Below are positions 17,493 to 20,277 of a stretch of 32,000 bases of DNA, piece after piece. The stretch is from Candidatus Saccharimonadota bacterium (GTDB lineage: Bacteria > Patescibacteriota > Gracilibacteria > BD1-5 > UBA2023). The stretch is taken from assembly GCA_046350815.1 (NCBI GenBank), contig JAXLZO010000001.1, positions 1,170,001 to 1,202,000 on the forward strand. The letters run 5' to 3'. The notes beneath the pieces were generated by a model, which saw nothing but the letters and a program-made list of their open reading frames with translations, had not been told where the DNA came from and did not search any database. How positions within the stretch are numbered: position 1 is the first letter of the stretch; every line of letters begins with the position of its first letter. The position numbers were made by a program, and so were the translations under genes.

Positions 17493-18077
17493 TTATTTAT
17501 AAGTAATTCAAAATGCTAAAAAAGTCATCATTATAATTCAAATGATAAAAGCAGATATTGAAATGCGTATAAGCAGGGTTGTTATTTGTCAAAAATAATC
17601 CTCACTTTGATTCAACTTTTCGAGTGTTTTATTTGCTCTATTAATATTTGATTGAATATCTTCACTAGAAATATTTTCTCACTCTTTTGTTACTAGTTTT
17701 GAAGTACTTAAACTCTCAAGCTGAATACTTTGCAGGTTAATTTCTAATAAGGCTAATCTCACTGATTTTTGAGAAAATTTCTGATAAGCGGAAAAATATT
17801 TCACAAATATTGAAGAAATTAAAGCTATTATGAAACAAAGAATAAAAGTAAAAAAGATATTCTTCTCAAAATAGGTAAAGCTCGTTTTATCTTTCAAGGC
17901 CAAAAACGCTGTTAGGGACACTGAGAGTATGCCTCAGCTATATACAGAAACTTTATCCATGAATTCATGAAATATTTTATCTCATTCGAATTGTATAGCC
18001 TGAGCTTCTTGTATTCATTCTTTGTACTTTTGCGGAATAGTTTCCATTAGATGTGTCATATATTCAAACTTAAACAT
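17493..18077 (-). CDS. Predicted membrane protein encoded between mod and res
   Basis: Open only under table 25, with seven in-frame TGA codons. The ATG at 18077 overlaps the mod stop (aATGtTTAA); an alternative ATG is at 18059. TAA at 17493-17495 lies 2 nt before the res ATG. Hydrophobic segments: ILSVSLTAFLAL, IFFTFILCFIIALISSIFV and ITTLLIRISISAFII-G-IIMMTFLAF. Confidence 0.6.
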
Positions 18078-19823
18078 TAATTTCTAAAATTTTCATATTG
18101 TCATTCCCGAAAATATCGATCACTTTTATAGCGATCTTCTTCTTTCCTGGATTTGCATATTCACGAGAAGGGGTCATGAGTTCGAGAGTTTTTTCTTTTT
18201 TGGTGCGGAACGATTGCCACTCATTCTCGAAGACATAGTTCCCTGTTTTTACCGTCTGCCAATTTCCTTTCTCATCTTGGATATTCATGATCTCATCCTT
18301 GGACTCATAGTCCCAATCCACAGACCAATAATCAATCCAATCTGTCCACTTCTTCGTGAGGAGTTCACGCTCGACGATTCACTCCTTTGACTTCGATACT
18401 TTGATAATCTGTCCGCCATCCATGACGATAGAGGACTTTCCATCTTTGAGCTTCTCGATGACAACATCGATATCCTCCTGCGTATAGAATACACTGAAGT
18501 CTGTAAGCTCGATAGCGACACTTCGCTTCTCGACATATGGTCGAGCCTCGATATAGGCGATATCGAAGAATCGTACTTGTCCTCGCTCTATAGCACGCTT
18601 ATCGAAAACATCCTTGGGGATATATTTCAGTGCGAGATCGATACCATATTTCTTCACTTCCTCGATGACATGAGGACCGACCGACATCTCCCACTCGAAT
18701 CCGAGGATATCGACTTTTGTAAATCATTTCTCCTTGCACTCATCGATGATAGTATCGATGAAGTCACGACCGACAGGCGTATCGACTGGGCCAATCGCAA
18801 ATACTCGACCTCACTTCTGCCCATGAAGTGTGCGAACTCCTGTGATACCCTCTCCACGATATGCCTGCATGATGAGCGAGTGGAAGTCTCGAGTCTTTTG
18901 CTCTAGGAGAGCTTGTTTCTCATTTTTGAGTCTGTCTTCGACGGTATCGGTTCCCCCTTGAGAAAGGGGGCTAGGGGGATTTTGCTCGATATTTCCGAGG
19001 AATGCACTTCTCTCATATCGTCCGAGATTCAGTATCTCGAATGCTCTCCAGTCCTTGCCTGCATCCTTGAGTTGTCTCTGGACTCCTATCATCCGCTTAC
19101 GAGTCGTATGTATACCGAACTTCCCGAGATCAGAACCTATCCACTTACGTCAGAGCTTCTCTGCGACGGCGAGAGTAGTACCAGATCAGCAGAAAAAGTC
19201 ACAAACAATATCTCACTCATTTGAAGATGCTTTAATAATTCTCTCCAGTAGTTTCTCTGATTTCTGTGTTGGATATCAAATATTTTCTCATGGATATCTT
19301 GCTGATCTTTGAATATCCACCCACCAATCTTCAGGTACTTTTCAATTTTCATTTAGAATAATCGCTTCAAAATTCATTCCTTAGGTTAAGACTTACCCTA
19401 TTTATTAAACACTCATTGATTTTGCATCTTTTTCTAGTAACTCGTTGATTTTATTTTCTCAACTTGTGTATCAATGAATGGTCAATTGTAGATATTTCGT
19501 TCTTTTTCAGGGTTAAAAATATAACTGTCTGATTTTTTATAATAAGAATGCTATCATGCTTTTTAGGCCCAAAATTCTTTTCATACACCCTGAATTCTGT
19601 ATCACCAAATAATTTCATTCTGGAAATTATTTTTTCAAAATAAATCATCTAAAATTATTCTCATGTATGAATTTACTCTATAATCACAGTGTACGTAAAT
19701 ACTCCCATCATCGGCGAGGAGGTCTCGCATGAGACGAAGTCTCTCGTAGATCATCGAGATGAAACTATCTGCTCACTTTCACCAGGTATCACGATAGGCA
19801 AGTTCCTCAATTACTCGATCCGG
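18070..19823 (-). pseudogene. mod: Beta-class N6/N4 DNA methyltransferase (type III-like Mod), disrupted and 5'-truncated
   Basis: The C-terminal 435 codons (18070-19377) are intact: [51 protein letters not shown]...WSVDWDYE...IDIFGNDN. The upstream part (AYRDTWGKGADSF...GSIYVHCDY...NEIIWGY...KKHDSILII...YIFNPEKER) needs frame changes near 19563-19577 and 19534-19539. Region 19378-19436 has TAA or TAG in all frames. I found no DPPY/F motif. Confidence 0.75.
18953..18979. repeat. C5-N8-G5 palindromic element inside the mod coding sequence
   Basis: cccccttgagaaagggggctaggggga is read in frame on the minus strand as NPPSPLSQGGT. Confidence 0.7.
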
Positions 19824-20277
19824 TAATCACTCGCCCGATATCTCTATCACCCTCATGAAAGCTCATGATATAAAGTTTTGCATGAATTTTTCCACTCGAA
19901 TATGCCCGGATTTCCAGTTTTCCAGAACGCAACCAATCAATAAATATATTGATTCACTGTTCTACTTTCTCTGATTCTTTTACTCATTCAATTTCATTAC
20001 ATACTTTCTCAGAATATATATTTTTGATCTCGCTATATGATGATTCGAGAGATTGTTGAATAGTTGTATATACCTCTCGACTAGTTGATATCCCGATAAG
20101 AATACGAATCTTCTCACTTGACTCAATTTCTGGATATATCTGCCAGAATCCACTTGTATAGAAATATCACACGAGAACATCAAAATATTGAGTATCTTTT
20201 ATAAGCGTTCGGAATCTATCAGATAGCGTATTTCCTGATTCATTTGTAATGAACGTGAGATCAGAAATTTGAGACAT
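19765..20277 (-). pseudogene. PLD (HKD) nuclease-domain fragment, truncated right after GSSN and abutting the mod remnant
   Basis: ATG at 20277. Sequence: FITNESGNTLSDRFRTLIKDTQYFDVLV-G-YFYTSGF...KIRILIGIST...KIHAKLYIM...GDRDIGRVITGSSN, then unrelated residues to TAG 19765-19767. The mod-homologous frame starts within the same nucleotides at about 19823. Confidence 0.65.

What the first reader, a model, noticed from the sequence alone, without database searches (positions are those of the whole stretch)
18070..20277. mod is decayed and chimeric, fused to a PLD fragment, while res stays intact
Beta-class N6/N4 methyltransferases carry the catalytic DPPY/F motif upstream of the AY.DTW...NEIIW block, and FxGxG near the C-terminus.
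- The FxGxG half (18070-19377) is intact.
- The middle block needs two opposite 1-nt frame changes, at a T4G3 run (about 19563-19577) and an A6 run (19534-19539).
- Region 19378-19436 has stop codons in every frame.
- No DPPY/F motif exists.

Instead the reading frame abuts, at about 19815-19825, a PLD/HKD domain (KIHAKLYIM...GRVITGSSN) cut off immediately after GSSN. This looks like a deletion that joined a PLD-helicase-type gene to an internal point of mod. The frame changes in homopolymer tracts are also the kind of site used for phase variation of type III mod genes.
Basis: partly seen in the sequence, partly recalled or inferred. Interest (0 to 1): 0.65.

Follow-up and report, generated by a model that had tools for sequence, protein, structure and literature searches.

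The report
Dead mosaic type III methylase gene
In a small bacterium that reads TGA as glycine, the methylase gene of a type III restriction system was recently killed by patches of foreign DNA and three small frameshifts, while its nuclease partner gene is still intact; this is ordinary gene decay with an unusually clear anatomy.

Summary
The window uses genetic code 25 (TGA = Gly). On the minus strand lie res (intact, 889 codons), a small membrane-protein ORF, and a dead mod gene.

An orthologous locus (L006, about 90% nt identity, same flanking genes) has an intact 717-aa Mod, so every lesion can be mapped:
- The mod promoter, 5'UTR and first 3 codons are retained.
- Codons ~4-152, including the catalytic DPPF motif, are replaced by a 455-nt patch from the 5' end of an HKD(PLD)-SNF2 helicase gene. 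That gene belongs to a different defence system, where it pairs with an Eco57I-type methylase.
- The upstream joint is in frame. The downstream joint (GTAAT microhomology, 19811-19815) is out of frame.
- The target-recognition region is itself a hybrid of two TRD types, joined out of frame at about 19383-19392.
- Its type-A part carries three 1-nt frameshifts.

The PLD piece is an embedded patch, so one deletion between neighbouring genes cannot explain it. Phase variation is excluded. dN/dS indicates recent inactivation. Clustering of the small frameshifts is unexplained, and reads were not available. Interest is low to moderate.

The parts
14824..17490 (-). res: intact type III-like restriction subunit, 889 codons. 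It carries an SF2 helicase (GAGKT, DEAHH, QTIGRGLR) and a C-terminal PD...ELK nuclease motif.
   Evidence: Pfam ResIII 1.2e-16 and PADLOC REase_III 3.5e-21. Zero indels against L007 over 2.6 kb. Window-branch dN/dS 0.03-0.06.
17493..18059 (-). orfX: a 188-aa predicted three-TM protein in the slot between mod and res. The slot content is unrelated in every related locus.
   Evidence: No Pfam family above the curated cut-off. No blastp similarity among the slot ORFs of L006, L007, L001 and L004.
18070..19230 (-). mod backbone, 3' part: motif I (FCGSGTT) and the ~330-aa C-terminal region, stop at 18070-18072. The frame is open.
   Evidence: 84-86% nt identity to L006 and L007. Pfam and PADLOC hits. 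Window-branch dN/dS 0.117.
18953..18980 (.). G+C-rich hairpin (CCCCCTTGAGAAAGGGGG) lying in an in-frame 18-nt insertion in modC that is absent from L006 and L007.
19231..19382 (-). TRD type-B segment ([57 protein letters not shown]), in the same frame as the 3' backbone.
   Evidence: About 97-100% aa and 77-90% nt identity to the P0024 gene (L009), against only 60-67% to L006/L007 at 19231-19260.
19383..19392 (-). Out-of-frame joint between TRD type A and TRD type B, on AGGAAT-like microhomology. The TAA at 19381-19383 is A-derived sequence read in B's frame.
19393..19607 (-). TRD type-A segment with three 1-nt frameshifts: +1 at about 19565, -1 at about 19546, +1 at about 19440.
   Evidence: Frameshift-aware alignment to P0021, P0046 and P0086, and about 74% nt identity to L010.
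19608..19810 (-). mod backbone, middle block (EELAYRDTW...NEIIW). Its frame is +1 relative to the PLD patch.
   Evidence: 84-86% nt identity to L006 and L007, and 97-100% to L006 at 19711-19800.
19811..19815 (-). 3' junction of the patch (GTAAT). The PLD parent reads ...AGTAAC/T TTT..., the mod parent reads ...GGTACT C/G GAGGA.... The joint is out of frame.
   Evidence: alignment. Blast end-points.
19811..20266 (-). Patch copied from the 5' coding end (codons ~5-159) of an HKD(PLD)-SNF2 helicase gene. It stops about 33 residues before the end of the PLD domain.
   Evidence: 84% aa identity to P0122, P0123 and L012, and 76% nt identity to L005 and L012. PADLOC PbeA N-terminus and the HKD+Snf2 family. 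Pfam PLDc_2 covers residues 57-192 of the full protein.
19765..20277 (-). Residual 170-codon ORF: mod start codon, PLD fragment, then 14 out-of-frame codons. It was called as a gene (P0121) on a 1.28-Mb contig.
20267..20335 (-). mod's own 5'UTR, start codon (20275-20277) and first ~3 codons (ATG TCT CAA A). The 5' junction of the patch is at about 20266-20268 and is in frame.
   Evidence: 96-97% nt identity to L006. The UTR is conserved in L001, L007 and L008.

Best explanation
The region is a recently inactivated, mosaic pseudogene of the Mod subunit of a type III-like R-M operon (mod-orfX-res) in a code-25 (Gracilibacteria/Absconditabacteria-type) genome.

Shown:
- The ancestral state, preserved in orthologue L006, was an intact ~717-aa Mod at the same chromosomal site.
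- In this lineage mod codons ~4-152, including catalytic motif IV (DPPF), were replaced by a 455-nt patch. The patch was copied from the 5' end of an HKD(PLD)-SNF2 helicase gene of a different defence system.
- Both joints of the patch sit on a few bases of microhomology. The 5' joint is in frame and the 3' joint is out of frame.
- The target-recognition region is an out-of-frame hybrid of two TRD types. Three 1-nt indels lie in its type-A part.

Inferred:
- The joints arose by illegitimate, microhomology-mediated recombination with ectopic or incoming DNA. This was either one-step patch replacement or insertion followed by deletion. For the TRD-B patch, the 3' crossover was probably homologous, in the conserved YPTQK-FxGxG region.
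- The locus can no longer make a methyltransferase. The mod promoter can at most drive a 170-aa truncated PLD fragment.
- In type III systems Mod supplies DNA recognition and stabilises Res. Intact Res is therefore expected to be inert, so loss of Mod is not self-toxic.
- res and orfX have simply not had time to decay.
For: - Code 25.
- Synteny with L006 at 90% nt identity over 5.4 kb, up to 10 nt inside the mod ORF, with intact Mod P0002 there.
- The mod-type 5'UTR travels with mod in L001, whose genomic context is unrelated to the window's.
- Patch homology and end-points.
- Donor family and its usual partner gene.
- Motif IV absent in all frames.
- TRD A/B hybrid and three frameshifts.
- The assembly is not frameshift-prone. 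There are 0 indels in 2.6 kb of res and only in-frame indels in modC and 4.5 kb of flank.
- Recent inactivation. Window-branch dN/dS is 0.117 for modC, against 0.05-0.10 on intact branches, and 0.03-0.06 for res.
- Mod directs and stabilises Res: PMC3874151.
- Hypervariable central TRD, conserved res and mosaic mod alleles are known for type III systems: PMC1557822.
Against: - No reads were available, so the junctions and the 1-nt indels cannot be verified directly.
- The junction was not found in any other assembly.
- The true donor of the patch has not been sampled. The best relative is 76% nt identical, so breakpoints are known only to within a few nt and the patch cannot be dated, because synonymous sites are saturated.
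- All three 1-nt indels fall in the 215-nt TRD-A segment (P about 0.001-0.002 if lesions were uniform). Simple neutral decay after one inactivating event does not predict this.
- modC stays open for 437 codons. That is compatible with recency, but also with residual selection.
Confidence: 0.8

Rival explanations
1. One reading: an HKD/PLD-helicase gene lay immediately upstream of mod, and a single deletion fused its 5' end to an internal point of mod.
For: The 3' junction on its own looks like a deletion end-point with microhomology. Both pieces are on the same strand.
Against: - The mod cassette's own 5'UTR, ATG and first ~3 codons lie upstream of the PLD piece.
- Orthologue L006 has an intact mod at this site with no PLD gene.
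- In L011-L013 the full HKD-SNF2 gene is followed by a different large gene, shown in L012 to be an Eco57I-type MTase. It is not next to a type III mod.
- A two-step variant, with insertion of HKD-SNF2 DNA at mod codon 3 and then a deletion, is not excluded. It is counted under the best explanation.
Confidence: 0.07
2. Assembly or consensus artefact: the strain has an intact mod. The patch, the TRD hybrid and the indels would come from misassembly, or from polishing a population that is polymorphic at this hypervariable locus.
For: - The lesions cluster in the one region that differs between all related alleles.
- The small indels cluster in 215 nt.
- No second assembly carries the junction.
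Against: - Junction overlaps are only 3-6 nt, too short for k-mer or overlap misjoins.
- Neighbouring res, modC and 4.5 kb of flank have no frame-breaking indel against orthologues.
- The PLD patch comes from a non-allelic gene and is flanked by mod DNA on both sides.
- The contig is 1.28 Mb.
Confidence: 0.08
3. Phase variation or programmed frameshifting: the homopolymer frame changes are reversible switches of a still-functional mod.
For: Type III mod genes are often phase-variable through repeat tracts (PMC1557822, PMC7383803). Two frame changes lie near short runs.
Against: - Motif IV and 150 N-terminal codons are physically missing.
- There are two out-of-frame recombination joints and a third indel.
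- The tracts are only 3-6 nt, and the -1 change is not in the A6 run.
- No combination of slippage events restores a Mod.
Confidence: 0.01
4. Residual function: the 435-aa C-terminal Mod fragment, starting at the internal ATG at 19377, and/or the 170-aa PLD fragment are still expressed and selected. For example, the fragment might act as a Res-stabilising, methylation-dead partner.
For: - modC is open for 437 codons with window-branch dN/dS of 0.117, while 215 nt just upstream carries three indels.
- res is under strong constraint.
- Mod stabilises Res (PMC3874151).
Against: - Low dN/dS over a long branch is expected if the inactivation is recent.
- The AAGGA motif directly abuts the ATG, so there is no proper spacing for a ribosome-binding site.
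- The fragment lacks motif IV and most of the TRD.
- The PLD fragment lacks the last ~33 residues of its fold and the whole helicase.
Confidence: 0.05

Closest known systems
Type III restriction-modification systems (EcoP15I/EcoP1I type; Mod is a beta-class N6_N4 MTase, Res is an SF2 helicase-nuclease)
   Same: - mod lies upstream of res on one strand.
- The Mod remnant matches PF01555 and PADLOC MTase_III.
- The intact orthologue P0002 matches EcoP15I Mod (4zcf_A, 1e-13).
- Res matches PF04851 and PADLOC REase_III, with helicase motifs and a C-terminal PD-ExK motif.
   Different: - Mod is dead, with no motif IV.
- An unrelated variable ORF sits between mod and res, where EcoP1 has a 2-bp gap (PMC3874151).
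- Mod carries a ~330-aa C-terminal extension.
- Res has no sequence-level match to any solved structure.
Hypervariable and mosaic mod alleles of type III systems (Haemophilus and Neisseria mod; Bayliss et al. 2006, PMC1557822)
   Same: - The central TRD differs between otherwise similar alleles, and res is conserved. Window, L006, L007 and L001 each carry a different TRD.
- Recombination breakpoints lie next to the variable region.
   Different: - Here the TRD exchange failed: the A|B joint is illegitimate and out of frame.
- There is no simple-sequence repeat tract, so there is no phase variation.
[quoted passage not shown]
   Same: Ectopic, non-homologous DNA replaces resident sequence, with both ends (the PLD patch) or one end (the TRD-B patch) at microhomologies of a few bases (bioRxiv 10.1101/2023.11.22.568220).
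   Different: - SPDIR patches are described as 3 to about 100 bp. This patch is 455 nt.
- The mechanism is inferred from end-points only. An insertion followed by a deletion would look the same.
HKD(PLD)-SNF2 helicase with an Eco57I/MmeI-type methyltransferase, a two-gene system (PADLOC 'HKD+Snf2' C3a139; DrmD-like SNF2)
   Same: The patch is 84% aa identical to the N-terminus of such proteins in Gracilibacteria MAGs.
   Different: Only residues ~5-159 of ~1,065 are present. The end of the PLD fold, the helicase and the partner methylase are all absent from the locus.

Membership tests
Type III R-M, Mod subunit (beta-class N6_N4 MTase, PF01555) | Catalytic motif IV (D/N/S)PP(Y/F/W) upstream of the TRD | tested here: not met
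   No such motif in any frame of 17900-20600. Orthologues have IYIDPPFDVG at codons ~125-134. That region is replaced by the PLD patch.
Type III R-M, Mod subunit (beta-class N6_N4 MTase, PF01555) | SAM-binding motif I (FxGxG) downstream of the TRD, giving the beta-class order IV...TRD...I | tested here: met
   FCGSGTT is in the open 18070-19380 frame. PF01555 positions 134-214 match at 1.5e-24.
Type III R-M, Mod subunit (beta-class N6_N4 MTase, PF01555) | One continuous ORF encoding the whole subunit | tested here: not met
   Two out-of-frame joints and three 1-nt frameshifts. Intact relatives are 713-745 aa long.
Type III R-M, Res subunit (PF04851) | SF2 helicase motifs plus a C-terminal PD-(D/E)xK nuclease, encoded downstream of mod | tested here: met
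   Pfam ResIII 1.2e-16 and PADLOC REase_III 3.5e-21. GAGKT, DEAHH, QTIGRGLR and YYPDF...IIELKG are read directly from the translation. No PDB sequence match.
Type III R-M (system level) | Methylation and ATP-dependent restriction activity | not testable with these tools
   Needs methylome data or biochemistry. Both activities are predicted null, because Mod is required for recognition (PMC3874151).
Phase-variable type III mod (phasevarion) | A simple-sequence repeat tract in or near the ORF whose length changes switch an otherwise intact gene on and off | tested here: not met
   The frame changes lie at runs of 6 nt or fewer. The gene cannot be restored by slippage.
HKD(PLD)-SNF2 helicase-nuclease (PADLOC HKD+Snf2; Pfam PLDc_2 + SNF2 + Helicase_C) | A complete PLD domain followed by an SNF2 helicase (~1,065 aa) | tested here: not met
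   Only the first ~159 residues are present. PLDc_2 spans residues 57-192 in full-length L012. The fragment alone is below the Pfam threshold, and its only hit is weak, to the PADLOC PbeA N-terminus.
Natural PLD-MTase fusion architecture | Homologues with PLD and N6_N4_Mtase domains in one intact ORF | tested here: not met
   None of the 120 best PLD-fragment homologues carries PF01555, and none of the 120 best Mod homologues carries a PLD domain. In the window the 3' joint is out of frame.

The most novel reading that the evidence does not exclude
The locus is a natural record of long-patch double illegitimate recombination between two unrelated defence genes. In the same gene there is also an aborted TRD swap. 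This would mean that, in these recoded, reduced CPR genomes, defence loci are frequently overwritten by microhomology-primed patches of ectopic or incoming DNA, possibly through error-prone synthesis that also left the clustered 1-nt indels. Alternatively, the intact Res and the still-open C-terminal Mod fragment are retained under selection for a Mod-independent role.
Probability: 0.12. Interest if true: 0.5.

Novelty: new member of a known kind. Interest (0 to 1): 0.27.

Why it matters
Decay and mosaicism of R-M genes are well known, so the biological message is modest: this organism has just lost one type III system.

The value is mainly anatomical. Because an orthologous intact locus exists, all six lesions can be mapped to within a few nucleotides:
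- two joints of a 455-nt foreign patch;
- one failed TRD exchange;
- three 1-nt indels.

That gives a clean natural example of microhomology-mediated patch replacement between unrelated defence genes, and of TRD shuffling going wrong, in a code-25 CPR bacterium.

For annotation, it warns that the 170-aa 'PLD' gene and the 437-codon 'methylase' ORF called here are fragments of one pseudogene. It also warns that res alone should not be scored as an active R-M system.

Tried and rejected
- **Table-11 ORFs:** misleading, since everything looked fragmented. Replaced by code 25.
- **TAA at 19381-19383:** I first read it as a TGA(Gly) to TAA point mutation. DNA alignment to the type-A and type-B templates showed it is A-derived sequence read in B's frame at a recombination joint.
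- **Weak similarity upstream of 19814:** tblastn and Smith-Waterman extended the mod alignment upstream of 19814 ('KSGHIRVEKFMQNFISGA'). I treated it as a chance extension, because that DNA is 76% identical to HKD-SNF2 genes and has no blastn match to mod.
- **Third protein search, with the reconstructed TRD:** returned only short, distant proteins and did not recover P0021 or P0024. It says nothing about whether an intact A/B hybrid TRD exists.
- **Exact-protein look-up of the window's PLD fragment, plus two junction-pattern scans of JGI metagenomes:** found nothing.
- **GTDB-representative scan:** did not contain the source genome, so I could not ask whether a full donor HKD-SNF2 gene exists elsewhere in the same genome.
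- **dN/dS of the PLD patch:** uninformative, because synonymous sites are saturated against all relatives.
- **Rfam and tRNA scans of the window:** empty.
- **Res against PDB by sequence:** no hit.
- **Not attempted:** structure prediction and the 1.84-billion-protein profile search, because they would not change the verdict.
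Full report
**Genetic code**

Under table 11 every gene in the window is fragmented. Treating TGA as sense raises the longest ORF from 357 to 892 codons and triples the ORF coverage. The nine in-frame TGA codons of the 3' mod ORF align with Gly in 67 of 108 residues of twelve standard-code homologues, and never with Trp. 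They include both glycines of FxGxG and of 'LGR'. The window therefore uses code 25, the Gracilibacteria/Absconditabacteria code. Its own PLD-fragment protein (P0121) is recorded on a 1,283,673-bp contig. The closest relatives of the patch are Gracilibacteria-type MAGs.

**Layout on the minus strand**

- res, 14824-17490. It has 889 codons and is intact. It matches Pfam ResIII and PADLOC REase_III, and the motifs GAGKT, DEAHH, QTIGRGLR and PD...ELK are all present.
- A 188-aa three-TM ORF, 17493-18059.
- An open 437-codon frame, 18070-19380. It carries motif I (FCGSGTT) and a long C-terminal region, and matches PF01555 positions 134-214 and PADLOC MTase_III at 2.8e-60.
- A broken stretch, 19383-19607.
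- A 68-codon mod block, EELAYRDTW...NEIIW, 19608-19810, in another frame.
- A 170-codon ORF, 19765-20277, whose first 156 residues are the N-terminus of a PLD/HKD protein ending at GRVITGSSN.

Intact Mod relatives at 66-75% identity are 713-745 aa long. They carry IYIDPPFDVGADFS...TVLEELAYRDTW. No [DNS]PP[YFWH] exists in any frame here.

**The orthologous locus**

L006 is the contig of P0002, the closest Mod. It aligns with window 20268-25623 at 90% nt identity, through WecG, a GT1 glycosyltransferase and an O-antigen-ligase-like gene. It aligns again with mod and res at 84-90%. L006 has an intact 717-aa Mod that starts at the position matching window 20277.

The window-L006 homology runs through the 5'UTR and ATG and stops about 10 nt into the ORF. 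Homology to HKD-SNF2 genes takes over at 20265-20266. The ~45-nt 5'UTR (TTGGCATTTACTTTGGTAAGTGCCTTTT..ATG) is also conserved upstream of mod in L001, L007 and L008. L001 shares only mod and res with the window, so this UTR belongs to the mod cassette.

At the other end, mod homology ends at 19808-19814 and PLD homology ends at 19809-19811. The joint reads GGATCGA-GTAAT-TGAGGAACTT, against PLD ...AGTAAC/T TTTACC and mod ...GGTACT C/G GAGGA.

So 455 nt of HKD-SNF2 coding sequence (codons ~5-159) replace 452 nt of mod (codons ~4-152). The replacement is in frame at the 5' joint (M S Q | I S D L T F) and out of frame at the 3' joint. The ORF ends 14 codons later. One deletion between neighbouring genes cannot give this structure.

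**Identity of the donor**

In L011-L013 the full gene encodes about 1,065 aa. Its domains are PLDc_2 (residues 57-192), an SNF2/DEAD helicase and Helicase_C. The best PADLOC family is 'HKD+Snf2'. It is followed by a large gene, 1,138 aa in L012 and L013. The L012 protein matches Eco57I, N6_Mtase, TaqI_C and MmeI_Mtase. It is not followed by a type III mod.

The window's fragment lacks the last ~33 residues of the PLD domain and the entire helicase. The true donor has not been sampled, since the best relative is 76% nt identical.

**The broken middle**

I ran a frameshift-aware protein-to-DNA alignment under code 25 against 120 homologues. It shows two templates.
- Type A (P0021, P0046, P0086) matches NEIIWGYRIQGVGKEFWA | KKHDSI | YYKKSDSYIFNPEKERNIYNGPFIDTQVEKIKSTS | TRKRCKINECLINRVSL. 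This needs a +1 at about 19565, a -1 at about 19546 and a +1 at about 19440.
- Type B (P0024-26, P0044) is essentially identical to [57 protein letters not shown], from 19382 to about 19231.

DNA alignments to L010 (type A) and L009 (type B) confirm the switch between about 19395 and 19382, on an AGGAAT-like overlap and out of frame. The TAA at 19381-19383 is A-derived sequence read in B's frame. In 19378-19436 only two of three frames carry stops. Window, L006, L007 and L001 each have a different TRD between conserved flanks. This is the pattern described for Haemophilus and Neisseria mod (PMC1557822).

**Artefact controls**

- Against L007, res has no indel in 2.6 kb.
- modC has one in-frame 18-nt insertion.
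- The 4.5 kb of flank genes have only in-frame indels.
- Junction overlaps are 3-6 nt, too short for assembler misjoins.
- Reads were not available, and no other assembly carries the junction. An artefact therefore cannot be fully excluded.

**Timing and selection**

Three-taxon Nei-Gojobori estimates under code 25 gave the following window-branch values:
- dN/dS of 0.117 for modC, against 0.096 and 0.053 on the intact L006 and L007 branches.
- dN/dS of 0.056 for full-length res and 0.026 for its N-terminal part.

Almost all divergence therefore accrued under constraint, so the inactivation is recent. One feature remains unexplained. All three 1-nt indels lie in the 215-nt TRD-A segment, which has P of about 0.001-0.002 under uniform decay. 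Possible reasons:
- TRD-A has an older dead history.
- Backbone segments were later refreshed by homologous exchange. Window 19711-19800 is 97-100% identical to L006.
- Repair synthesis at the joint was error-prone.
- The consensus is an artefact of a population polymorphic for the TRD.

**Function now**

This part is inference from established type III biology (PMC3874151), in which Mod recognises the site, directs Res and stabilises it.
- With no possible Mod, the system should be both modification-null and restriction-null.
- Loss of Mod should not be self-toxic.
- The 170-aa PLD fragment and the open modC frame are most likely inert remnants.

**Comparison and verdict**

This is a dead member of a known kind, a type III-like R-M system with a hypervariable TRD. 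It was killed by illegitimate recombination of the kind described as homology-facilitated or short-patch double illegitimate recombination, though the patch here is longer than the 3 to ~100 bp described there. Phase variation and a conserved PLD-MTase fusion are both rejected. Interest is low to moderate. The finding is useful as a precisely mapped natural example and as an annotation caution.

Noticed in passing
window 17493-18059 (minus); L006 7505-8161; L007 2508-3734; L001 12396-13103; L004 12242-12757; L008 3875-4285: The slot between mod and res holds a different, mutually unrelated ORF in every related locus (188-aa 3-TM protein here; 218, 408, 235 and 171 aa elsewhere; empty in L008), although the flanking mod and res are 75-90% identical. 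It looks like a hypervariable passenger position inside a type III operon.
   Followed up: partly
window 14622-14665, 18953-18980, 20832-20847, 20908-20924, 25891-25906: G+C-rich hairpins of the form TTCCCC(C)T..TTGAG..GGGG occur 6 times, against 0.6 expected by shuffling. Four flank the R-M cassette. One is an in-frame 18-nt insertion inside modC that is absent from L006 and L007. The one at 25891 looks like an intrinsic terminator.
   Followed up: partly
window 14659-14694 and 20732-20767: A 36-42-nt inverted repeat (GGGTGGCACGTAGTGACGGRGTGG core, 86% complementary) brackets the whole res-orfX-mod cassette. The right arm is also present in L006, and a similar sequence occurs in L008. Its significance (mobility, inversion or regulation) is unknown.
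   Followed up: partly
window 20581-21477 (plus): There are two overlapping-frame ORFs here, where L006 has one 226-aa gene call. Indels relative to L006 are -1, +2, +1, +1 and +3. This may be a second decayed gene next to mod, or non-coding DNA rich in the hairpin repeats.
   Followed up: no
window 3-3268 (minus): An SNF2-type helicase gene runs off the left end of the window. It is 27% identical to the helicase part of the HKD-SNF2 gene of L005. Upstream of it is a gene with a Fic-type motif (HPFDNGNGRT, read directly from the translation; no Pfam search was run on it). This may be another defence module. It is not the donor of the patch.
   Followed up: no
window 19711-19800 versus L006 5829-5918: This 90-nt stretch, immediately 3' of the PLD|mod junction, is 97-100% identical to L006, while surrounding orthologous DNA averages 85-90%. 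That hints at recent homologous exchange between lineages at this locus.
   Followed up: no
L005 10001-12374: The closest JGI relative of the patch donor is itself called as two genes (268 + 558 aa). Under code 25 the two open frames overlap (9995-10807 and 10641-12374), which suggests a frameshift or sequencing error in that HKD-SNF2 gene as well.
   Followed up: no
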